Shown here in pieces: positions 134-16,527 of a stretch of 64,000 nucleotides of DNA. Below the pieces are notes generated by a model that made no database searches, had not been told where the DNA came from, and saw nothing but the letters and a program-made list of their open reading frames with translations. Numbering within the stretch: the first letter of the stretch is position 1; the number at the start of each line of letters is the position of its first letter. Position numbers and translations under genes: made by a program. This DNA comes from a virus: positions 1-64,000 of IMG/VR virus record IMGVR_UViG_3300013125_000003; one strand, 5' to 3'.

Positions 134-340
134 GTGTTAGAAGAAAAGCTGAAGTCGATTGCGACTAACGAACACGAAGAAAAGGTACGGAATCGTCGAA
201 ACGATCAGATCGGAGAAGGAGGAAGGGGTTTAAGGAAGAGAACGTACCGGGTCGTTGACGGAACCGTGATAGATCATACAACGAATAAACAATGCAGATG
301 GAAGGACGTACAAAAGGGTAAGATTGATCTGCTAAAATAA
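134..340 (+). pseudogene. C-terminal remnant of a class I peptide-chain release factor-like protein, GGQ region absent
   Basis: RNDQIGEGGRGLRKRTYRVVDGTVIDHTT...VQKGKIDLL resembles the RF1/RF2 tail (QIGxGxRSxxIRTY...VxDHR...GxLD); no GGQ upstream in frame. Confidence 0.6.
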
Positions 341-348
341 CGACTGAA

Positions 349-690
349 ATGAAAATACTATTCCTCGATGACGATCACAATCGGATCGATGTCATCAAAA
401 AAAGATGGGACGCAAATCATGAACTGAGCATTGCAGAAAATGCGGCTGAAGCTATTGATCTGTTAAAAAAGATCAAATTTGACTTGGCGAGCTTGGATCA
501 CGATCTTGGAGGAAAGGTTTTTCAACAGAGCGGTAAGAATACGGGTTACGAAGTAGCTCAGTTCATAGCAAAGATGAAAGACCCTCCGCCGATAGTAATA
601 GTTCACTCTTGGAATTACGATGGAGCTCAGAACATGCTAGCTGAACTTCGTGGAGTAACTGAAACTGATTATCAGCCATTTGTTGTATAA
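349..690 (+). CDS. Cyclic-phosphate-processing receiver-domain protein
   Basis: ILFLDDD...SLDHDLG...TGYEVA...VHSWN motif series. Confidence 0.75.
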   Translation: MKILFLDDDHNRIDVIKKRWDANHELSIAENAAEAIDLLKKIKFDLASLDHDLGGKVFQQSGKNTGYEVAQFIAKMKDPPPIVIVHSWNYDGAQNMLAELRGVTETDYQPFVV

Positions 691-703
691 ATTTAGAAAG
701 AAC

Positions 704-1117
704 ATGATAAAAGCAACTAGAAATCAAATCTACAACGTTCACAACCATTACCAGGGAAAGACCAAGAAGGTCCTGTGTGCGTGCTCCGCTGGTCTGTTAA
801 GGTCAGCCACTCTCCAGAATTTTCTGATCAGAGAGTACGGTTACAACGTCAGAAACTGCGGAACCGACGAATCTTACGCACTAATCCCTATATCCGAAGC
901 TTTGGTTGAATGGGCAGACGAGATAGTTTTCGTCAATTCTCAGAATTACAACATGGTGAAGGAAGAGATCGAAAGTCTTGGAGCAACCGAAAAGTGCTAC
1001 GTTCTCAATATTCCGGACATTTACGCGTTTAACGATCCTGCTCTAGTAGACATCTGTAAGGAACAGTACGAGAGAATCGTTCTAACGAAAGTGGCTGGTA
1101 CTGCTGACGATAAATAA
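704..1117 (+). CDS. Low-molecular-weight tyrosine-phosphatase-like protein
   Basis: CSAGLLRS (C-x5-R) P-loop; WADEIVF and LNIPDIY motifs; likely start ATG 704. Confidence 0.75.
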   Translation: MIKATRNQIYNVHNHYQGKTKKVLCACSAGLLRSATLQNFLIREYGYNVRNCGTDESYALIPISEALVEWADEIVFVNSQNYNMVKEEIESLGATEKCYVLNIPDIYAFNDPALVDICKEQYERIVLTKVAGTADDK

Positions 1118-1121
1118 AGGT

Positions 1122-1298
1122 ATGAAACAATTCGTACCTAATTTTTCGGAATTTTCCAGAGTTTACGAGCAAGTTGCTAAAGAGGACGAGATTCTCAAAG
1201 GTGGAAAAGCGGACGACCAAGAGTTTCGTTTCGTTCGATCGGCTGATGTATTGGAAAAACAACAAGTGAAACCTTTTTCGGTAACCTTGTATAAATAA
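1122..1298 (+). CDS. Small 58-aa late protein with capsid-targeting-like N-terminus (not in ORF track)
   Basis: ATAAATA at 1110-1116, then MKQFVPNFSEFSRVYEQVAKEDEILKGGKADD...LYK*. Confidence 0.55.
   Translation: MKQFVPNFSEFSRVYEQVAKEDEILKGGKADDQEFRFVRSADVLEKQQVKPFSVTLYK
1268..1297 (+). promoter_or_regulatory. Composite promoter GAAAC-N16-GTATAAATA
   Basis: GAAAC 1268-1272, GTATAAATA 1289-1297 (contains the T4 late consensus TATAAATA). Confidence 0.6.
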
Positions 1299-1322
1299 CC
1301 CAGAACGACGCTTAACAACGAT

Positions 1323-1441
1323 ATGAAATAGGTAACGAGACAAACACGCAAAACTGAAAGACCTCAGCGTTTCGCAGAGGCGACCCAAACGGGCGCTAGC
1401 GTGACGTTCTCGATCAAGTTTATTAAAGGCGCCCGTTTTTT
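1323..1441 (+). promoter_or_regulatory. Met-Lys-amber leader plus terminator-like stem (putative attenuator) upstream of tRNA-fMet
   Basis: ATG AAA TAG 1323-1331; stem AAACGGGCGCT 1387-1397 / GGCGCCCGTTT 1428-1438 followed by T run. Confidence 0.5.
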
Positions 1442-1445
1442 ACAT

Positions 1446-1518
1446 CGCGGGGTGGCAGCAGAGGTAGCTCGCAAGGCTCATAACCTTGAGGTCGAAGGTT
1501 CGAATCCTTCTCCCGCAA
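1446..1518 (+). tRNA. tRNA-fMet (CAT), initiator type
   Basis: CGCGGGG...CAAGG-CTCATAA-CCTTG...GAAGG-TTCGAAT-CCTTC-TCCCGCA-A; C1:A72 mismatch; no encoded CCA. Confidence 0.92.
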
Positions 1519-1570
1519 CACTTGTAGGTATCGCATCGGGCAAGTACTGGAATCTACCTACTATTTTTTT

Positions 1571-1599
1571 ACCTCATCCTGAAAAGGGTGAGGTTTTTT
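1571..1599 (+). terminator. Rho-independent terminator after tRNA-fMet
   Basis: ACCTCATCCT-GAAA-AGGGTGAGGT-TTTTT. Confidence 0.75.
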
Positions 1600-1616
1600 A
1601 TTGGTACAATACTCTC

Positions 1617-2672
1617 ATGGAAACACCAGCACTATACTCACGGGACGATTTTAGGTCGCTAGTTTTTGCTCGCGATAATTACTCGTGTGTGATGTGCGGC
1701 AACCCGGCTAAGGACGCACATCACATCATAGAGCGTAGGCTGTTTTCAGACGGAGGTTATTACCTAGAAAACGGAGCTTCTCTGTGCGAGTACCACCACC
1801 TTGCAGCAGAAAGAACTACTCTATCGTGCAACGAGATTCGCAACAGTGCTGGTATAACTCAGATCGTCATACCTGATCACATGTACGATGATCTCCAATA
1901 CGATAAGTGGGGAAACATAATTCTGCCCAACGGCTTTAGATTGAGAGGTGAACTCTTTTACGACGAATCCGTTCAGAAAGTCCTATCAGAAGGGAACATG
2001 CTACACTTGTTTCAAAAGTACGTTAAGTACCCGAGAACGATGCACCTTCCTTGGAGCAATTTACTAAAGGATGACAGAATCTTGGCGAACGACGATCATT
2101 TTGTCGGAAAAAGAGTCATCGTTACCTTGAAGATGGACGGTGAGAACACGACCATGTACAACGATAAGATCCACGCACGTTCGTTAGACTCAGGAAGTCA
2201 CGAGACCAGGAATTGGGTGAAAGGCCTGTGGTCCAGAATCGGTTGGATGATCGACGATAACATGCGAATATGCGGAGAGAACCTCTACACTGTTCACTCA
2301 ATGAAGTATGACAACTTACCTTCATACTTCATGGTGTTTTCAGTTTGGATCGATAACACTTGCTTGGCCTGGGAAGAAACGACTGAGTACGCTCAGATCC
2401 TTGGACTGGAAACAGTTCCTGTGATCTATGACGGCATTTACGACAGAGAAGCTATCGAAAAAGCGTTTGCTCAGTACTCAGAAACTAATGAGGGTTACGT
2501 TGTCCGAATAGCTGACAGCTTCAACTACGGCGATTTCAGAAAGAGCATAGCCAAGTACGTTCGGCCGCAATTTAGGCAGGCGATCAACAATTCGCACGGA
2601 CACTGGATCTCAAAAAAAGTAGAAACTAATAAGCTGAAAAGTGACAGTTCAACGGAAAAAGTGGTACGTTAA
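1617..2672 (+). CDS. HNH-domain / RNA ligase (Rnl2-like) fusion
   Basis: N-terminal CxxC..DAHH..N...LC..HH; ligase KYPRT.HLPWS, KMDGEN, GENL, EGYVVR; start ATG 1617 (track start 1401 runs through the tRNA). Confidence 0.85.
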   Translation: METPALYSRDDFRSLVFARDNYSCVMCGNPAKDAHHIIERRLFSDGGYYLENGASLCEYHHLAAERTTLSCNEIRNSAGITQIVIPDHMYDDLQYDKWGNIILPNGFRLRGELFYDESVQKVLSEGNMLHLFQKYVKYPRTMHLPWSNLLKDDRILANDDHFVGKRVIVTLKMDGENTTMYNDKIHARSLDSGSHETRNWVKGLWSRIGWMIDDNMRICGENLYTVHSMKYDNLPSYFMVFSVWIDNTCLAWEETTEYAQILGLETVPVIYDGIYDREAIEKAFAQYSETNEGYVVRIADSFNYGDFRKSIAKYVRPQFRQAINNSHGHWISKKVETNKLKSDSSTEKVVR

Positions 2673-2719
2673 ACTTCACTAAGCAATTTTGCACCACAAT
2701 AACAAAAAAATCAAACAAG

Positions 2720-2806
2720 ATGAAGTAGAGCATTAGAAGTCCTGTCGGAGTTTTTGAATCTCAAGCTGTTAATTCACAAAATTCACAACAAAAAAATTCA
2801 AAAACA
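2720..2806 (+). promoter_or_regulatory. Met-Lys-amber mini-leader in frame with the downstream gene
   Basis: ATG AAG TAG 2720-2728, then 26 sense codons with no stop to ATG 2807. Confidence 0.55.
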
Positions 2807-3106
2807 ATGACAACAAAAGACTTAAAATCGGAAATCAAAGCCCTCGCAGAAAAGCAGAGGCAGACCAAGGAACAGAGAAAAACTGTAAACTTCAAGGGAA
2901 CACGTTCTTTGAATCCTAAAGACGCGCAGCTTTTAGCGCTCGAACAGAAAAGCCAACTCAAGCACATGTACATCGCGTACGCTCTGCTCAGAGGCAAATC
3001 TATAGAGACGGCTATCAACCCGGAAACTGAGTATTCACAAAGAAAGGTTGACGAAATCATGGCGAAGTATGCAGAAGCTGTTTGTGTTAGTGAGAACGGA
3101 TCTTAA
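2807..3106 (+). CDS. Hypothetical basic protein paired with the PTH2-like gene
   Basis: 99-aa ORF with HMYIAYALLRGK motif; overlaps next gene. Confidence 0.7.
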   Translation: MTTKDLKSEIKALAEKQRQTKEQRKTVNFKGTRSLNPKDAQLLALEQKSQLKHMYIAYALLRGKSIETAINPETEYSQRKVDEIMAKYAEAVCVSENGS

Positions 3107-3362
3107 GGGATCCAGCCCAGCCGTACAGGCTGGCCACGCCGTCGCGCAGTGGATGATTGATCATCCGAACACCTGGGAAAACGAAACCCTGGTCTACCTA
3201 AACGTCGGTTCAAAGTTCGACCTGCACAAGTGGATCTCAAAAATTTACTACAAAGACTTGGATTTCTCAATTTTCAAAGAACCTGACCTTGATCACGAAG
3301 CAACAGCGATCGCTTGTTTAACCGATAAACGCAACATCTTCAGCAACCTTCCGCTCCTGTGA
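3069..3362 (+). CDS. Peptidyl-tRNA hydrolase, PTH2-like
   Basis: KLFVLVRTDL..AVQAGHAVAQW...FKEPD....TAIA...LPLL. Confidence 0.8.
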   Translation: MQKLFVLVRTDLKGSSPAVQAGHAVAQWMIDHPNTWENETLVYLNVGSKFDLHKWISKIYYKDLDFSIFKEPDLDHEATAIACLTDKRNIFSNLPLL

Positions 3363-3379
3363 GCGGAAGGTTTCCTTTT
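3345..3379 (+). terminator. 12-bp hairpin overlapping the PTH2 stop codon
   Basis: AACCTTCCGCTC-CTGT-GAGCGGAAGGTT then TCCTTTT. Confidence 0.55.
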
Positions 3380-3391
3380 AACAAGAAAAAC

Positions 3392-3814
3392 ATGGACACT
3401 TACTTAGATCATAAAAACGTAGTCAAGAGACTAGTTGACGAGTACCGATTTCACGAAGGTTTGGTCGTAGCGTACGATTTTGACAACACTGTGTACGATT
3501 ATCGCAAAAAGGGAGACACTTACGACATGGTAGTTGACCTACTAAGAACGTTGGAAAAAGTTCCTGGAATAAGCTTTGTTGTTTGGACCGGAACTGCTAA
3601 CGAACGCCACGATTTTGTTAGAGCCTATCTTCAAGCGAACGACATTCCGTACCATACGATAAACGAGAACCCATCTTTCTTCAAATCTTCGAGTAGAAAG
3701 ATCTTTTACAGCATCCTTCTCGATGATAGAGCTGGTTTAGTCTCAGCGTACAATGCCCTGGTTGACTTTTTGAACGAAATTGGGGTACAGTATTTTTACA
3801 AAGAAAGATCATGA
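3392..3814 (+). CDS. HAD-superfamily phosphatase-like protein
   Basis: VAYDFDNT motif I, VWT motif II, K..ILLDDRAG motif IV. Confidence 0.75.
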   Translation: MDTYLDHKNVVKRLVDEYRFHEGLVVAYDFDNTVYDYRKKGDTYDMVVDLLRTLEKVPGISFVVWTGTANERHDFVRAYLQANDIPYHTINENPSFFKSSSRKIFYSILLDDRAGLVSAYNALVDFLNEIGVQYFYKERS

Positions 3815-3861
3815 AAAAGTCCGTAAAAGTTTTAGTAGTTGGCGAAACTTTCGATTAAATT

Positions 3862-3932
3862 GGGTTTGTAGTTCAGCGGTAGAACGGCGGTCTCTAAAAC
3901 CGTTAGTCGGGGGTTCGACTCCCCCATTCCCT
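3862..3932 (+). tRNA. Amber suppressor tRNA (anticodon CTA), Trp-like body, imperfect acceptor stem
   Basis: D arm GTTC/GAAC; anticodon arm GCGGT-CT[CTA]AA-ACCGT (CTA 3894-3896); T arm GGGGG-TTCGACT-CCCCC; acceptor GGGTTTG/CATTCCC with two U-U mismatches and one C shared with the T stem. Confidence 0.75.
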
Positions 3933-3935
3933 CAG

Positions 3936-3960
3936 AAGCCTGAACCACTCAGGCTTTTTT
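3936..3960 (+). terminator. Terminator after the suppressor tRNA
   Basis: AAGCCTGA-ACCAC-TCAGGCTT-TTTT. Confidence 0.75.
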
Positions 3961-3986
3961 AGTATAAGAGCGAAAAGTTACATTAG

Positions 3987-5855
3987 ATGTCTAAGAACAG
4001 GATAGCTCTAATCCAAGTATGGTTCGGTAAGCTTCCCAGCTATTTCGAGTACCACCACTCAACCTGCCTAAACCAGAGAATCGATTTTTACTTTTTCACC
4101 GACCAAGAAGTCGACAAAAAGTTCGAAGCTGAAAACGTAAAATTCTTCAAGATCACGCCGAGAGACGTTCAGCAGAGATTGTTCGACAGAACAAAAAGAC
4201 CTCTAGTAATCCCGTCAGCTTACAAGCTCAACGATATTAAGCCTACTTATCCGGACCTTTTTCGAGAGTATGTGAAGGATTACGAGTTCGTTGGTTGGTA
4301 CGATATTGACACTTTGCTTGGAGATGTTGCTTCCTGGATGGAACCTTATCTTGACGAGTTTGACGTGATCTCCTTCGGAGAGAACGGTCCAATTTACAAT
4401 CGCATCTCTGGACCTTTGGCGATAACTCGAAACACCGAAAAAGTTAGAACAGTTTACCTAAATGATCCAACCTTTTACGAGTGCATGTCAAAACCAGACT
4501 ACGACGAGTACGACGAGAGGAAGATAACCGAAACTTACGAAAAGCTAGGGATTCATGTGAAGGTCATGTTTGACTGTTCTAACATGGACCCGATCAGCTA
4601 CAAGATCAAGTTTGACGCACTTTGGACTGGCGGGAAAGTGTACGTTGGCGGAGTAGAAAAGATGATCTACCACTTCTTCAGAAAGAAGCACACTGAGTTC
4701 AAGAGAAGGGGCCAAGCGATCGTAGCTAGGAGAAAAGTGGAGTACTTGGACGATTTCTACTACATCACATACTTCACGCAGAGTTACGAGCCGACCGCTA
4801 GAACTCTGATCAGCACGATAGAAAAGTTCTCGAGAAGAAGGTGCATTTTGTACACGGTGAACTATTCGTCCACGTTAGTTCACGAGCTATCCGATCAATT
4901 CGTAGTTAGGCGGATAGACATCACAGGCAGGGATTTTCTTGACAAGCGCGGGCGCAGCTTCAACACGATCACTTCCAAGCCGGTCATTCAACTCGACTCA
5001 CTTACTGCTTTTCCAGGAAAGAAGTTCGTGTTCCTTGACACCGACATTTACATCACGGTAGGCATGGATTCGATAGCTAAGTACTTCAACCAGCTGGAAA
5101 ATTACCCCTTGACGAATTCCCACGTGCACGACGTCATCTACAGCATAGAAGATAACGGCGACCGCGTTAGTTCGTTGCACGCTCTTGGCGACGAGATAGG
5201 TGTTCCTGTTAGAATATTTCCTAGACGAAAGACCAACGTGATGCTATACGACGAAAGGTCAGCGTGGTTCTTCAAAGAGCAGATGGACATCTACAACGAG
5301 CACAAGGATTCGACCAGGAGGTCCATCTTTAAGTTTCACGATGAGGACACATTCAACATCATACTGTCAAAGTACGACCTCCCTAAAGCCCTCCCAGTAG
5401 TGGACATTGAGGAATCGTTCGACATAAACCTAAACATTTACGATAATTACACTTACAACTGCTGTCCAATATCTGACAAAGCAATCGTTCCGAAAACTGA
5501 TCGTGACGTTTACGTGTTTCATGGTTACAAGAGTCCGGAAGTTTTTCAGCAAGTCGAAGACACCTACGGCTCTACTGTTCTTGATAAAACCGACATGATC
5601 GTCGAGTACGACGGGAAGGACGTTGTTCTGATAAAAACATCGTTTCTCAAGGAGAAAAGGATCGAACCGAAAGTAAACGTCATTCTGAAGGACGATGATG
5701 CCGAAATATTTAGGTGTGGTTGGGAAATATTCAACTCTCAGCTGTTCTTCATCTGGGGAATTCACTTACAGAATCGCAAGACCTACTTGGTAGAACTGAC
5801 CGAACAGGGAACTGACCGTTTAATTTTCAGGACCGAGCTGATCACAAACTACTGA
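3987..5855 (+). CDS. Two-domain glycosyltransferase-like protein
   Basis: N-domain WFGKLPSYF...YKLNDIKP...GWYDID; second domain FLDTD (DxD) and HDED. Confidence 0.65.
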   Translation: MSKNRIALIQVWFGKLPSYFEYHHSTCLNQRIDFYFFTDQEVDKKFEAENVKFFKITPRDVQQRLFDRTKRPLVIPSAYKLNDIKPTYPDLFREYVKDYEFVGWYDIDTLLGDVASWMEPYLDEFDVISFGENGPIYNRISGPLAITRNTEKVRTVYLNDPTFYECMSKPDYDEYDERKITETYEKLGIHVKVMFDCSNMDPISYKIKFDALWTGGKVYVGGVEKMIYHFFRKKHTEFKRRGQAIVARRKVEYLDDFYYITYFTQSYEPTARTLISTIEKFSRRRCILYTVNYSSTLVHELSDQFVVRRIDITGRDFLDKRGRSFNTITSKPVIQLDSLTAFPGKKFVFLDTDIYITVGMDSIAKYFNQLENYPLTNSHVHDVIYSIEDNGDRVSSLHALGDEIGVPVRIFPRRKTNVMLYDERSAWFFKEQMDIYNEHKDSTRRSIFKFHDEDTFNIILSKYDLPKALPVVDIEESFDINLNIYDNYTYNCCPISDKAIVPKTDRDVYVFHGYKSPEVFQQVEDTYGSTVLDKTDMIVEYDGKDVVLIKTSFLKEKRIEPKVNVILKDDDAEIFRCGWEIFNSQLFFIWGIHLQNRKTYLVELTEQGTDRLIFRTELITNY

Positions 5856-5879
5856 TAAATAAGAATAAAGTAGCGGATC

Positions 5880-6851
5880 ATGTCAACTTACCAAGCCAGA
5901 CCTTTTGCAATCGGAGACATCGGTGCAGGCGGGATAGCCTATTACAACATGTCGATAGGCGAACCGAACCTTAATTACGATGAACTTCCTGGTGGGTTGA
6001 CGTGGTACATGGAACCAAACGAGATACCCGGGTTCATCATAGCTTTGTAGAACGGAGCTGAACCGACATTCTTTAGGTCCACTAATAAGACTGATGCTAG
6101 CTACCTTTCGCTACTACAATCTCTATACAAGAGCAGCACAGGATTGGAACCTGGCACAACGATACCCTGGTTCGACACGTTCCTTTCTACCAACAGCCTG
6201 TACACTTCTTACGAGGTCAGCGGGTCGATGAGCTTCACTGGAACTGGAACGTGTTACGGAGAAGTAGCCAGCGCTACCGACCTTCTCCCAGGAACGAATG
6301 ATTTTACAGTTGAATGGTTCCAGAAACAGAGCTTAGGTTCGGATTTTCCTAGAGTATTTCAGTTCGGTGCATGGCCTTCAGGATTCGGCACAAGCTCGAA
6401 AAGCGGAGCAATCTATTTTTGGTACAACGGGCAGTACATATTCAGAGGCTTGCCTACCTGGCAGGATGAGTGGATCCACATAGCGATATGCCGTTACAAG
6501 AATTACGTGAGGATATTTCACAACGACACTCAGCTTGGAGCAGCGGCTTACATACCGGACAACATCACTGATACTGAAACTGTTATGCATTTGGGAATCG
6601 ACCCTGGATACGCTTCTACCACTTACTTCACCGAGTTGATAAGCAACTTTCACGTAAATCCAACTGTTGCAAAATACTGGGAAAACTTTTCTGCGCCGAC
6701 ATCAGGATTGAACATATCTTACGATTCTCACCTTCTTTTGAGAGCATCAACCAACGGTTCTCTTCTAACCGATTCCAGTCCAATCGGAATGACTGTAACT
6801 ACTGCTGGATCAACACCTATAGCTTGGAGCTCAGATAAACCTTTCGTCTAA
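5880..6851 (+). CDS. Late LamG/concanavalin-like (putative virion) protein interrupted by in-frame TAG at codon 57
   Basis: ATAAATA 5855-5861; ATG 5880; TAG 6048-6050 in frame with track ORF 6144..6851; DFTVEWF, WIHIAICR, ISNFHV LamG motifs. Confidence 0.7.
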
Positions 6852-6915
6852 TTGGAGTATAAATAACTAGACCGATCACCGCATTTTTTAGTAGGTTAGC
6901 CCAAACTATCGACTA

Positions 6916-7588: not shown

Positions 7589-8091
7589 TACGCGCGAAAT
7601 TAATCATATTTCTAGCGTCGCTAATGCTATTAGGCGCAGTCTGGTCTTATGAAACGACCAAAGTAACCCAAAAAAAGATACAGACGGTTGGAACGCCTAT
7701 TAGCAAGGGACCTCTAAGCATCAGAATGTACGATTACTTGGTTGAATACTCGGAAAAGTACGAGGTACCTCTTCAAATAGCACTCGGAATAGCTGAAGCA
7801 GAAACCGGGTACGAGGGACCGTTTCACTGGGACTACAATCCAGCTAGAGTTTCCAGCGCTGGGGCGTGCGGAGCAATGCAGATACTTCCATCAACCGCAA
7901 CCTACATTTACGGTGAACGAGTAACGAAAGATCAACTCCTTACTGACCTTGAGCTTAACGTTGAAATCTCAATGAAGTACATGGCGTACCTTTACAAGAT
8001 GTCAAAGCGTTGGGACATCGCTCTTGGGTACTATAACACAGGCACACCAGTAGTCAACAGCTACGCGATGCGCATCATGAAAAACACCTAG
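7585..8091 (+). CDS. Lytic transglycosylase (SLT) with N-terminal signal/anchor
   Basis: AEAETG catalytic Glu, SSAGACGAMQI, ALGYYNTG; ends in TAG. Confidence 0.85.
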   Translation: MIRAKLIIFLASLMLLGAVWSYETTKVTQKKIQTVGTPISKGPLSIRMYDYLVEYSEKYEVPLQIALGIAEAETGYEGPFHWDYNPARVSSAGACGAMQILPSTATYIYGERVTKDQLLTDLELNVEISMKYMAYLYKMSKRWDIALGYYNTGTPVVNSYAMRIMKNT

Positions 8092-16371: not shown

Positions 16372-16527
16372 ATGAAGAGGCTCGTCGAAAATTTTGACCA
16401 ATTCTTGCAGCAAGCAAGTTTATCCCAGACCGGCGATCCTAACATTTTTGGGTTGAACCCAAAGAAAAAGGGCTTGAAAGTTAAGAAAAGTAAGCCCAAA
16501 CTAAAATCCAAACAACAGCCTGAGTAG
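16372..16527 (+). CDS. Small basic protein with capsid-targeting-like N-terminus
   Basis: MKRLVENFDQFLQQ...Lys-rich; ends in TAG. Confidence 0.55.
   Translation: MKRLVENFDQFLQQASLSQTGDPNIFGLNPKKKGLKVKKSKPKLKSKQQPE

What the first reader, a model, noticed from the sequence alone, without database searches (positions are those of the whole stretch)
134..6851. Candidate amber-read-through regulatory circuit in a phage that otherwise keeps TAG as stop
Seen within 7 kb: a tRNA with CUA anticodon (3862-3932); two ATG-AAR-TAG mini-leaders, each with a long open frame after the TAG (1323, 2720); a PTH2-like hydrolase; an initiator tRNA; a GGQ-less release-factor remnant; and a late gene split by one in-frame TAG (6048). 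TAG still looks like a true stop at 8089, 16525, 33945(-), 45566, 53102(-) and 54218(-), so this is not blanket code-15 recoding. Known: some phages recode TAG to Gln and concentrate recoded codons in late genes. Inference: suppression works here as a conditional switch gating tRNA, Pth and virion-protein expression, with possible feedback because the suppressor sits at the end of an amber-led gene run.
Basis: partly seen in the sequence, partly recalled or inferred. Interest (0 to 1): 0.9.

Follow-up and report, generated by a model that had tools for sequence, protein, structure and literature searches.

The report
Phage amber-suppressor tRNA operon with UAG gates
A large lake phage that otherwise uses the normal genetic code carries its own UAG-reading tRNA beside a small tRNA-hydrolase-like gene, and a few nearby genes contain UAG codons that are probably read through only when that tRNA is active.

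Summary
The window starts a 131-kb fragment of a large phage that uses the standard code: 125 genes, 96% coding, stops TAA 100, TGA 16, TAG 9.

Confirmed: the tRNA(CUA), an initiator-like tRNA-Met, a PTH2-fold protein, genuine TAG stops elsewhere, and a LamG gene interrupted by one TAG. That site is CAG in the sister phage G001, and both flanks are under purifying selection.

Not confirmed: the release-factor remnant, and leader 1 (1323) as a coding or sensing element.

Leader 2 (ATG-AAG-TAG at 2720) looks real. A 2-5 codon mini-ORF ending in TAG, followed by a conserved peptide, is present in 5 of 5 related sequences. All 6 window-versus-G001 substitutions after the TAG are synonymous third positions.

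G001 has its own in-frame TAG inside the PTH2-like gene. Of 80 viral loci with this PTH2-like gene, 68 have a suppressor-type tRNA within 3 kb on the same strand (median gap 8 nt). In 14 the gene itself contains an in-frame TAG.

Best reading: a portable PTH2-like/tRNA(CUA) module forming a locally amber-gated operon. It is not blanket recoding. The feedback logic is inferred.

This scan found the same module earlier on other DNA (e1-5824620, e1-5824632).

The parts
349..690 (+). cREC-type receiver-domain protein, part of the RNA-repair/tRNA island
   Evidence: Pfam cREC_REC E 3e-17
1323..1331 (+). Leader 1, ATG AAA TAG. Present, but not supported as a translated or sensing element.
   Evidence: Downstream frame shows 8 substitutions against G001, 0 synonymous. 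It runs into the tRNA gene. It is absent in L015.
1387..1443 (+). 11-bp stem (1387-1397 with 1428-1438), a 30-nt loop and a T-run, directly before tRNA-Met
   Evidence: Read from the sequence. The stem is kept in G001, with T.G changed to T-A.
1446..1519 (+). Initiator-like tRNA-Met(CAT)
   Evidence: ARAGORN and Rfam at 49.6 bits. C1/A72 is unpaired. There are 2 G-C pairs above the anticodon loop.
1617..2672 (+). HNH-domain plus RNA ligase fusion protein
   Evidence: Pfam RNA_ligase E 1e-29. phrog_24030 RNA ligase E 1.6e-124, with HNH phrogs on residues 10-67.
2673..2719 (+). Highly conserved A-rich 5' region (likely promoter and 5'UTR) of the amber-led operon
   Evidence: 1 substitution in 47 nt against G001, compared with 18 substitutions plus gaps in 53 nt of the spacer after the tRNA. 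Its A-rich context resembles that of real starts.
2720..2728 (+). Leader 2 mini-ORF, ATG AAG TAG
   Evidence: A mini-ORF ending in TAG is conserved in 5 of 5 sequences: window, G001, L015, L016, L022.
2729..2806 (+). 26 codons after the TAG, in frame with gene 2807 and under protein-level constraint (S-I-R-S-P-V-G-V-F...)
   Evidence: 6 of 6 substitutions against G001 are synonymous third positions. The peptide motif recurs after the TAG in L016 and L022.
2807..3106 (+). Small helical protein of unknown function (gene 2807), which overlaps the PTH2-like start
   Evidence: 20 homologs of 95-123 aa. No Pfam or PHROG family. The ESM Atlas gave no usable hit.
3069..3362 (+). PTH2-fold protein (peptidyl-tRNA-hydrolase-like, 97 aa). 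It has no in-frame TAG in this phage.
   Evidence: G001's copy has TAG at codon 68.
3345..3372 (+). 12-bp hairpin spanning the PTH2-like stop codon
   Evidence: Terminator-like scan
3392..3814 (+). HAD-like phosphatase (DxDxT motif seen in the translation), inserted between the PTH2-like gene and the tRNA in this lineage
   Evidence: phrog_1238 E 5.4e-22. In 36 of 68 other loci the tRNA starts within 50 nt of the PTH2-like gene's stop.
3861..3933 (+). Amber-suppressor-type tRNA(CUA). The acceptor stem has two U.U mismatches and the T-arm is irregular.
   Evidence: Compensatory changes against G001 at 6:67 and 50:64. The same locus in L017 holds a tRNA(CUA).
3937..3960 (+). 7-bp hairpin plus T5, a terminator-like end of the gene run
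   Evidence: Read from the sequence. The scan did not list it.
3987..5855 (+). DUF6625 protein
   Evidence: Pfam E 3e-31
5880..6851 (+). LamG-domain protein gene with one in-frame TAG at 6048-6050 (codon 57)

Best explanation
The window holds a portable phage module, a small PTH2-fold protein gene plus an amber-suppressor tRNA(CUA). It is built into a short operon whose own mRNA carries UAG codons.

The order is: conserved A-rich 5' region, mini-ORF AUG-AAG-UAG, 26 constrained codons in frame with gene 2807, the PTH2-like gene, a HAD-like gene, tRNA(CUA), then a terminator-like hairpin.

The genome otherwise uses the standard code, with UAG as a rare genuine stop. Once the phage tRNA is made and charged by a host synthetase, UAG is partly read through. 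This yields the extended leader/gene-2807 product here. In sister phages it yields full-length PTH2-like protein. It also rescues the LamG gene, whose UAG is a lineage-specific change from CAG that the suppressor makes tolerable. Output of the operon is therefore tied to the activity of the tRNA that the operon encodes.

SHOWN: the anatomy, the conservation of the leader UAG, coding-type constraint after it, the PTH2 fold, the tight PTH2-like/tRNA linkage, and recurrent UAGs in PTH2-like genes.

INFERRED: that the tRNA is charged and decodes UAG, which amino acid it inserts, that read-through is partial and timed, and that the PTH2-like protein supports suppression, for example by recycling peptidyl-tRNA released when host UAG stops are overrun.
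For: Standard code. 125 genes, 96% coding, stops TAA 100 / TGA 16 / TAG 9. Extensions beyond 7 of the 9 TAG-ended ORFs are 0-50 codons with scores of -14.9 to +5.2. The exceptions are the LamG 5' piece and the ORF at 131088-131414, whose extension runs out of frame into the Gly-X-Y repeat gene.

tRNA. The CUA anticodon is confirmed. The tRNA is kept at the same locus in G001 and L017. There are two compensatory pair changes against G001 (read). It shows 7 substitutions in 73 nt, against 18 plus gaps in the 53 nt behind it.

Leader 2. TAG ends a 2-5 codon mini-ORF in 5 of 5 sequences. In 2729-2806, 6 of 6 substitutions against G001 are third-position and synonymous, while the gene body has 29 synonymous and 29 non-synonymous. 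The motif after the TAG, x-(I/R)-R-S-P-x-x-V-(F/I), recurs in L016 and L022. In L022 the read-through frame ends in a TGA that overlaps the gene's ATG. ATG 2720 has the same A-rich context as real starts, and only 4 of 93 genes have an SD-like word.

LamG. Homologs P0002 (323 aa) and P0003 (325 aa) are uninterrupted. G001 has CAG at the site. Synonymous/non-synonymous counts are 12/4 before the TAG and 12/3, 10/2 and 93/30 after it. The TAG is reproduced in another run.

G001. TAG at codon 68 of the PTH2-like gene, where the window has ATT, with the C-terminal 29 codons conserved.

Ortholog scan. 33,020 and 32,362 codons were compared. After dropping the rows listed under Tried and rejected, the only internal stops in well-supported genes are these two TAGs. 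Both lie within 2.2 kb of the tRNA.

Module. 68 of 80 PTH2-like loci have a suppressor-type tRNA within 3 kb (61 loci with CUA, 7 with UUA), all on the same strand. 36 of the 68 start 0-50 nt after the stop codon (median 8 nt). 15 of 80 PTH2-like genes have an in-frame stop (14 TAG, 1 TAA) at 9 or more positions. These sit at variable residues.
Against: There is no expression, charging or peptide evidence.

The window's tRNA is irregular. It has two U.U mismatches in the acceptor stem, and relative to G001 it has a 1-nt deletion that forces a 6-nt T-loop or a 4-bp T-stem. It could be weak or inactive.

In this phage the PTH2-like gene has no TAG, and gene 2807 has its own good ATG at 2807. Nothing essential visibly depends on read-through.

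In L016 the frame after the leader TAG closes (TAG, then TAA) before the gene, so the 'N-terminal extension' is not universal. The words AGAAGTCC are conserved at third positions too, which could instead mean an RNA or DNA motif.

G001's LamG copy has -5 and -1 indels, so this gene may be dispensable and the window's TAG a plain nonsense mutation.

The leader comparison rests on 5 sequences from about 3 lineages. Several of the 80 loci are near-duplicates (60 unique suppressor tRNAs among 69). 4 of the 14 PTH2-like genes with a TAG have no suppressor within 3 kb. Some module-bearing contigs may be recoded: 14 of 80 loci gain more than 0.10 crude coding density when TAG is read as sense, and Lak phages also carry the gene.
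Confidence: 0.55

Rival explanations
1. No functional read-through occurs in this phage. The LamG TAG is a recent nonsense mutation in a dispensable gene. The leader TAG is simply the stop of a regulatory upstream mini-ORF, or part of a conserved RNA/DNA motif. The tRNA(CUA) serves another purpose, such as disturbing host translation or acting as a decoy for tRNA-targeting defences, or it is decaying.
For: G001's LamG copy carries two frameshifting indels. The window's tRNA has an irregular T-arm and acceptor stem. AGAAGTCC is conserved even at third positions across window, L016 and L022. In L016 the frame closes after the TAG and a strong structure follows (z -3.1, 0 of 200 shuffles). The XacN1 authors found no targets for that phage's two tRNA(CUA) genes (PMC5852040, passages read).
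Against: Both deep internal stops found in about 33,000 aligned codons are TAG, and both lie within 2.2 kb of the tRNA. 14 of the 15 in-frame stops in PTH2-like genes are TAG, although TAG ends only 3 of 80 of those genes. 6 of 6 synonymous third-position changes follow the leader TAG. The mini-ORF stop is TAG in 5 of 5 sequences, where TAG is the rarest stop.
Confidence: 0.2
2. Nascent, unregulated recoding. The phage lineage has acquired a suppressor and depleted TAG stops. In-frame TAGs are beginning to drift in neutrally, as an early stage on the path to code 15, with no switch function.
For: TAG is the rarest stop (9 of 125 genes). The LamG site is CAG in G001 and TAG in the window, a single transition. 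In-frame TAGs in PTH2-like genes sit at variable positions with no preferred residue. The Borges et al. preprint proposes this order of events and notes one standard-code phage that has acquired a suppressor tRNA (10.1101/2021.08.26.457843, passages read).
Against: Drift should scatter TAGs over all genes expressed alongside the tRNA. Instead they concentrate in the module's own operon and neighbour and recur in the one gene family next to the tRNA (14 of 80). The leader TAG is conserved across relatives whose gene-2807 proteins are down to 59% identical.
Confidence: 0.15
3. Both Met-Lys-amber leaders are sensors, with leader 1 acting as a read-through attenuator for tRNA-fMet and leader 2 serving the Pth genes. 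Together with the LamG TAG they form a designed conditional switch over tRNA, Pth and virion-protein expression.
For: Leader 1 is followed by an 11-bp stem plus T-run that ends 2 nt before the tRNA, and the stem is kept in G001. Both leaders begin Met-Lys-amber. L016 shows a leader followed by a terminator-like structure whose base pairs with the conserved post-TAG words, so an attenuator version of this design may exist.
Against: Leader 1 has 0 synonymous among 8 substitutions. It is absent upstream of the tRNA-Met in L015. The motif count is no more than chance. The LamG TAG is private to this phage. No release-factor remnant was found. LamG is not shown to be a virion protein.
Confidence: 0.1

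Closest known systems
Stop-codon-recoded phages with phage-encoded suppressor tRNAs (TAG read as Gln, 'code 15': crAss-like, Lak and others)
   Same: Both have a phage-borne tRNA(CUA), in-frame TAG in phage genes, and a host assumed to use the standard code. A regulatory role for suppression has been proposed for these phages (Borges et al. preprint 10.1101/2021.08.26.457843, passages read). Lak phages also carry a PTH2-like relative.
   Different: Here TAG stays a genuine stop. Coding density is 96% under code 11, and only 1 gene plus 1 leader in 131 kb contain in-frame TAG. The TAGs sit in the tRNA's own operon and neighbour, not in blocks of late genes.
Standard-code jumbo phages with 'orphan' suppressor tRNAs (XacN1, CBB, phiM12)
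   Same: These are large phages with many tRNAs, among them a CUA (or UUA) suppressor of unknown purpose. The CBB tRNA(CUA) and phiM12 tRNA(UUA) are among the nearest GenBank matches to this tRNA. XacN1, CBB and GAP32 also encode a PTH2-like relative.
   Different: For XacN1 the authors report that they could not identify target genes (PMC5852040, passages read). Here candidate targets are identified. In CBB the PTH2-like gene lies about 3.7 kb from the tRNA rather than next to it.
Archaeal/eukaryotic peptidyl-tRNA hydrolase Pth2 (PDB 2zv3, 1xty, 3erj, 1q7s Bit1)
   Same: The fold matches (TM 0.75-0.81, E 1e-6 to 1e-4), and the Q-x-x-H-A and T-A-I/V-A sequence blocks align.
   Different: The phage protein is shorter (97 aa against 108-135 in the matched chains). 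It falls below Pfam's PTH2 cut-off. The D-A-G-x-T stretch of 2zv3 aligns with F-K-E-P-D here. Activity and substrate are unknown.
Leader-peptide attenuation and two-codon minigenes (trp-type attenuators; lambda bar minigenes and Pth), recalled from textbook knowledge and not from any call
   Same: A very short ORF sits ahead of the genes. In L016 a terminator-like structure follows it. A minigene lies next to a peptidyl-tRNA-hydrolase-like gene.
   Different: The sensed codon would be a stop codon read by the operon's own tRNA. No alternative antiterminator structure was found in the window (z -0.66). Sequence after the stop is under coding constraint, which minigene models do not need.
Programmed stop-codon read-through in viruses (Q-beta A1, retroviral gag-pol), recalled and not from any call
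   Same: There is a conserved stop codon followed by constrained coding sequence and a conserved 3' context.
   Different: In those cases the host's normal tRNAs misread the stop. Here the virus brings a cognate suppressor tRNA.

Membership tests
Code-15 (TAG->Gln) recoded phage | Many genes are interrupted by in-frame TAG, and coding density rises markedly when TAG is read as sense | tested here: not met
   96% coding under code 11. Only one ORF pair is joined by reading TAG.
Code-15 (TAG->Gln) recoded phage | TAG is not used as a terminator | tested here: not met
   8 genes end in TAG with short, non-coding extensions. One of them ends in another stop codon at the same position in G001.
Code-15 (TAG->Gln) recoded phage | Phage-encoded tRNA with CUA anticodon | tested here: met
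Code-15 (TAG->Gln) recoded phage | In-frame TAG aligns with Gln in homologs | tested here: inconclusive
   LamG: Q (CAG) in G001, but S, S and T in three further homologs. PTH2-like TAGs align with variable residues and gaps.
Pth2 peptidyl-tRNA hydrolase (Pfam PF01981) | PTH2 fold | tested here: met
   pLDDT 97. Ranks 1-10 and 13 in the PDB search are Pth2/Bit1-family chains, and rank 12 is a protein of unknown function.
Pth2 peptidyl-tRNA hydrolase (Pfam PF01981) | Score at or above Pfam's gathering cut-off | tested here: not met
   13.9 bits against 23 for the window protein. 35 of 71 relatives match at E<=0.01.
Pth2 peptidyl-tRNA hydrolase (Pfam PF01981) | Catalytic residues and hydrolase activity on peptidyl-tRNA | not testable with these tools
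   Only the alignment to 2zv3 was seen. Family invariants are Q20, H23, E71 and T79.
Bacterial initiator tRNA-fMet | Mismatch at position 1:72 | tested here: met
   C1 and A72 are unpaired in the ARAGORN drawing.
Bacterial initiator tRNA-fMet | Three consecutive G-C pairs at the bottom of the anticodon stem (feature named in the abstract of PMC6393288, search listing) | tested here: not met
   Only two G-C pairs, then A-T.
Class-I release factor (RF-1/PCRF domains) | Match to the PCRF or RF-1 domain profile | tested here: not met
   0 matches at E<=1 in G000 and G001. The controls matched in 11 (RF-1) and 12 (PCRF) of 14 genomes.
Leader-peptide transcription attenuator | Short leader ORF with the sensed codon | tested here: met
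   A mini-ORF ending in TAG in 5 of 5 sequences.
Leader-peptide transcription attenuator | Terminator hairpin with a competing structure between the leader and the genes | tested here: not met
   Window 2715-2812 folds no better than shuffles (z -0.66). Only L016 has a strong structure plus U-run (z -3.1).
PTH2-like/suppressor-tRNA module (this scan's working name) | PTH2-like gene and tRNA(CUA) on the same strand within a few hundred bases | tested here: met
   In the window the gap is 498 nt, holding a HAD-like gene. 68 of 80 loci have the pair within 3 kb.
PTH2-like/suppressor-tRNA module (this scan's working name) | In-frame TAG inside the PTH2-like gene | tested here: not met
   None in the window. 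Present in G001 and L022, and in 14 of 80 loci overall.

The most novel reading that the evidence does not exclude
The PTH2-like/tRNA(CUA) pair is a portable, self-sensing translational switch used by many unrelated large phages. UAG codons placed in the module's own mRNA (the leader mini-ORF and the PTH2-like gene) make its output depend on the suppressor it encodes. This would give a positive-feedback or homeostatic loop that moves an infected standard-code cell into a state of partial UAG read-through. The PTH2-like protein would be a dedicated accessory factor of suppression, recycling or deacylating tRNA. In some members (L016, perhaps leader 1 here) read-through of the leader UAG would work as a transcription attenuator that senses a stop codon.
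Probability: 0.3. Interest if true: 0.85.

Novelty: new variant of a known kind. Interest (0 to 1): 0.65.

Why it matters
Suppressor tRNAs are annotated in many large phages that use the standard code, and their purpose is open. The XacN1 authors state that they could not identify target genes (PMC5852040, passages read).

This case names concrete targets: a conserved UAG at codon 3 of a leader, UAGs inside the neighbouring PTH2-like gene in relatives, and a UAG in a LamG gene. It also names a conserved protein partner of the tRNA.

That makes the question testable with reporters and proteomics in cultured phages that carry both parts (XacN1, CBB, GAP32). It gives a possible view of the step between 'suppressor acquired' and 'genome recoded' proposed by Borges et al.. 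It would also add a natural example of gene control by a stop codon read by a cognate, virus-encoded tRNA.

My two searches for a paper that links Pth2 or peptidyl-tRNA hydrolase with phage suppressor tRNAs found none that makes the link. Supplementary tables were closed and may list such genes.

Tried and rejected
TOOLS THAT WERE CLOSED OR LIMITED
The DNA upstream of most of the 20 gene-2807 homologs, including the 288-kb contig of P0029, could therefore not be read. As that tool's message advised, I went on with the search for related loci and the DNA search on metagenome, viral and genome contigs.
- Sequencing runs: no RNA holder was listed.
- The table of differences for run X8 was cut (544 rows not shown). 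The base at 6048 and at 2726 in that relative was not seen. Only 'no gaps over 5666-6900' could be read.

DEAD ENDS
- Pattern search in genome contigs gave one hit, L020. It lies inside an unrelated bacterial membrane-protein gene, so I rejected it as chance.
- My first pattern had the wrong spacer and found nothing. It was corrected.
- ATYAGAAGTCC does not recur elsewhere in G000 or G001, so it is not a repeated promoter word.
- I compared the leader peptide with the recurrent N-terminal h-x-x-F-x-E-F motif (18 of 125 genes match a loose pattern). The leader lacks the second aromatic residue, so I dropped the idea.

tRNA ISOTYPE: UNRESOLVED
- G001's own 44 tRNAs are at most 56 of 74 identical to it.
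- The best E. coli match was tRNA-Asp at E 0.2.
- Phage matches span His, Asn, Trp, Met and Arg. Trp is best over the anticodon and T arms.
- The Trp-like, Su7-like reading remains a recalled lead.

OTHER CHECKS
- G001's TAG at 143979 is an ordinary boundary, with an ATG two codons later.
- The CBB and phiM12 3-kb loci hold no PTH2-like gene.
- The first coding-score scan for split genes missed the known LamG site. I replaced it with the ortholog scan.
- The crude code-11 against TAG-sense density over 6-kb loci is noisy and is used only as a caveat.
- The ESM Atlas gave no usable hit for gene 2807.

ROWS DROPPED FROM THE ORTHOLOG SCAN
- Stops at codons 3-28 of greedy-called genes, where the start had been called too far upstream. 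Two of these were checked.
- Three rows in or beside indels.
- A last-codon change.
- ORF 79384-79692, which had the lowest coding score.
- G001 ORF 65209-65463, shown to be antisense to a real gene (17 of 22 substitutions at its first codon position).

Full report
WHAT THE DNA IS. The window is the first 64 kb of a 131,445-bp virus record, G000. CheckV estimates it at 51% complete. Near-identical sequence occurs in several lake-water metagenome runs. A greedy ORF call under the standard code gives 125 genes covering 96% of the DNA, with stops TAA 100, TGA 16 and TAG 9. Only 4 of 93 ATG starts have an SD-like word upstream, and positions -11 to -18 are 53-63% A. From general knowledge, not from a call, this pattern is typical of Bacteroidota-type translation initiation. 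The one close relative in IMG/VR is G001, a 174-kb contig from another sample. It is collinear at 82-92% nucleotide identity and carries 44 tRNA genes, most of them in an array that lies beyond the start of G000. G001 also uses the standard code: 196 ORFs, TAA 127, TGA 45, TAG 24.

CHECKING THE OBSERVATIONS. The tRNA(CUA) is real. The tRNA-Met has the C1/A72 mismatch of bacterial initiators but only two G-C pairs next to the anticodon loop. The PTH2-like reading holds. The single protein is below Pfam's cut-off, but it belongs to a family with 773 representatives at E<=0.001. Of 71 members tested, 35 match Pfam PTH2. The family profile finds solved Pth2 chains. The AlphaFold model (pLDDT 97) superposes on Pth2/Bit1 structures at TM 0.75-0.81. 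No release-factor domain exists in G000 or G001, so that item of the finding is not confirmed. The rest of the island consists of a cREC receiver protein, a weak phosphatase-like ORF, an HNH-RNA-ligase fusion, a HAD-like protein and a DUF6625 protein. From recall, cREC, RNA ligase and phosphatases are parts of RNA-repair systems. The two tRNAs therefore sit in a tRNA-maintenance island.

TAG AS A STOP. Nine ORFs of my set end in TAG. For 7 of them the in-frame extension is 0-50 codons with a coding score of -14.9 to +5.2. An eighth small gene ends in TAG at 16525. Five of these TAG stops stand in the same sequence context in G001. The 8089 stop is another stop codon at the same position in G001. 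TAG is therefore an ordinary, if rare, terminator in this phage.

THE LamG GENE. Reading TAG 6048-6050 as sense joins 5880-6050 and 6051-6851 into one 323-codon frame. Two metagenomic homologs of 323 and 325 residues cover it end to end without interruption. In G001 the codon is CAG. More distant homologs have S, S and T at the site. Substitutions against G001 are overwhelmingly synonymous on both sides of the TAG: 12/4 before it, 12/3 in the 93 nt directly after it (a stretch with no start codon), then 10/2 and 93/30. Contigs from another run reproduce the TAG exactly. The gene is therefore a single gene with a real, lineage-specific in-frame TAG. On the other side, G001's copy has a 5-nt and a 1-nt deletion, so the gene may be dispensable. 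The copy from run X8 shows no gaps over 5666-6900.

THE TWO LEADERS. The nine-base motif is not over-represented. Leader 1 (1323) fails every test I could apply. Its 'open frame' crosses a hairpin and the tRNA-Met gene. Its 8 substitutions against G001 fall 5/2/1 on codon positions 1/2/3, and none is synonymous. In L015 the tRNA-Met is preceded by unrelated coding sequence.

Leader 2 (2720) behaves differently. The 134-nt spacer between the RNA ligase gene and gene 2807 is far more conserved than neutral DNA. There is 1 change in the 47 nt before the ATG and 6 in the 78 nt after the TAG, compared with 18 changes plus gaps in the 53 nt behind the tRNA. All 6 changes after the TAG are third-position and synonymous in the frame set by ATG-AAG-TAG, which is also the frame of gene 2807. 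The chance that 6 substitutions all fall on the 26 third positions of 78 is about 0.001 by my own arithmetic. No ATG, GTG or TTG lies between the TAG and ATG 2807. Both ATGs have the same A-rich context.

The arrangement recurs in every relative for which upstream DNA could be read:
- G001 and L015: ATG AAG TAG followed by the same peptide.
- L016 (gene 59% identical): ATG AAA ACA ATG ACG TAG, then V-I-R-S-P-S-I-V-F.
- L022 (PTH2-like 63% identical): ATG AAA CAT TAG, then V-R-S-R-S-P-D-V-I.

The continuation differs between them. It is fused in frame to the gene here. In L022 it ends in a TGA that overlaps the gene's ATG. In L016 it is closed by TAG and TAA and followed by a strongly structured element with a U-run, whose base pairs with the conserved words after the TAG (z -3.1). 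What is conserved is therefore a mini-ORF, a TAG, and a short peptide or RNA word, not the N-terminal extension as such. The TAG is kept in 5 of 5 sequences (about three lineages) in genomes where TAG is the rarest stop.

A SECOND PRIVATE TAG IN THE SISTER PHAGE. It has TAG at codon 68, where the window has ATT and L017 has Thr. The 29 codons after it, which hold the family's invariant E-P-D and T residues, are conserved. I ran an ortholog-by-ortholog scan over 33,020 codons (111 of 126 G000 genes) and 32,362 codons (109 of 196 G001 genes). After dropping the rows listed under Tried and rejected, it found no other internal stop in a well-supported gene. The only two are TAG, and both lie within 2.2 kb of the tRNA(CUA).

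THE MODULE IS WIDESPREAD. Using the family alignment I fetched 80 viral loci that encode a PTH2-like relative (of 110 confirmed). Of these, 73 hold some tRNA and 68 hold a suppressor-type tRNA within 3 kb: 61 loci with CUA and 7 with UUA. CUA is by far the commonest anticodon in these loci, 62 against 16 for the next. The nearest suppressor is always on the same strand. In 36 of 68 loci it starts 0-50 nt after the PTH2-like stop codon, with a median gap of 8 nt. In 15 of 80 loci the PTH2-like gene has an in-frame stop inside the homologous region: 14 TAG and 1 TAA, at nine or more codon positions. These fall at variable or loop residues with no preferred amino acid in homologs. By contrast only 3 of 80 of these genes end in TAG.

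Caveats apply. Several loci are near-duplicates (60 unique suppressor sequences among 69). 4 of the 14 genes with a TAG show no suppressor within 3 kb. Some contigs may be truly recoded. The tRNA bodies are diverse, but 43 of 60 share the anticodon loop CUCUAAA. In this window a HAD-like gene separates the pair. L017, a closer relative, has the same PTH2-like, HAD, tRNA(CUA) order, with a fully paired acceptor stem.

THE tRNA ITSELF. Against G001 it shows compensatory changes at 6:67 (U-A to C-G) and 50:64 (G-C to A-U), and it keeps two U.U mismatches at 4:69 and 5:68. CBB's tRNA(CUA) has mismatches at the same two positions (read). The window's copy lacks one base in the T-loop/acceptor junction and scores 53.3 bits, against 64.9 for G001's. 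Which amino acid it carries is unresolved. Gln is suggested only by the CAG/TAG pair and by precedent.

HOW IT MOST LIKELY WORKS. The best-supported reading is a locally amber-gated operon that encodes its own suppressor. Early in infection ribosomes starting at AUG 2720 stop at codon 3. Once the tRNA(CUA) accumulates and is charged by a host enzyme, they read through. The same applies to PTH2-like mRNAs in sister phages and to LamG here. The PTH2-like protein, always beside the tRNA, is probably an accessory of suppression. One plausible role is recycling peptidyl-tRNA when host UAG stops are overrun. All of this paragraph is inference from anatomy and conservation.

The rivals are as follows:
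- No read-through at all, with a nonsense mutation in LamG and a regulatory uORF or RNA word at the leader.
- Neutral early recoding without any switch function.

COMPARISON WITH WHAT IS KNOWN. The case is not a member of the code-15 phages, because two defining features were tested and not met. It resembles the intermediate stage that Borges et al. propose, and the 'orphan' suppressors of standard-code jumbo phages such as XacN1, whose targets were reported as not identifiable. I found no paper that links Pth2-like genes with phage suppressor tRNAs. Supplements were closed. The same module was reported earlier in this scan on other DNA. I re-tested its two main claims here and they held.

VERDICT. 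It is a new variant of a known kind, with interest 0.65.

Noticed in passing
G001 (L010), contig positions 123295-137555: The sister phage carries 44 tRNA genes, most of them in one array just beyond the point where G000 begins. G000 (51% complete) probably has a similar array off the contig.
   Followed up: partly
window 349-2672: A cREC receiver protein, a phosphatase-like ORF, an initiator-like tRNA and an HNH-RNA-ligase fusion lie side by side. This looks like a tRNA/RNA-repair island, possibly a counter to host anticodon nucleases.
   Followed up: partly
L016 300-410: A strongly structured multi-branch RNA element followed by a U-run (MFE -37 kcal/mol, z -3.1, 0 of 200 shuffles as stable) lies between the amber leader and the gene-2807 homolog. 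Its base pairs with the conserved AGAAGUCC word. It is a candidate stop-codon-sensing attenuator.
   Followed up: partly
L001 5270-5953: G001 has a 227-aa ORF inserted between the tRNA(CUA) and the DUF6625 gene. It has a GIY-YIG-like N-terminus, read by eye and not profile-tested. The window lacks it.
   Followed up: no
L001 8001-8966 (G001 LamG gene): The sister phage's LamG gene has a 5-nt and a 1-nt deletion that shift the frame between them. It is either a decaying gene or an assembly error.
   Followed up: partly
window and G000, N-termini of about a dozen genes (e.g. 1122, 12142, 15655, 24783, 33160, 43246): An N-terminal motif h-x-x-F-x-(E/Q/D)-F recurs in otherwise unrelated proteins. 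18 of 125 genes match a loose pattern.
   Followed up: partly
L042, L044, L045, L049, L061-L063: Seven PTH2-like loci, on contigs of 24-554 kb, have a tRNA(UUA) about 1 kb upstream instead of a tRNA(CUA) downstream. They show the largest gain in crude coding density when TAG is read as sense. These may be recoded, Lak-like phages.
   Followed up: no
L100 3097: One PTH2-like gene has an in-frame TAA at the loop position where several relatives have TAG, next to a tRNA(CUA) about 1.8 kb upstream.
   Followed up: no
window 3345-3372: A 12-bp hairpin spans the PTH2-like stop codon. It could divide the gene run into two transcription units or act as a processing site.
   Followed up: no
G000 125767-130971 (beyond the window): A 1,734-codon gene on the minus strand has an extreme coding score and open alternative frames. 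Another note of this scan describes it as a Gly-X-Y repeat.
   Followed up: no
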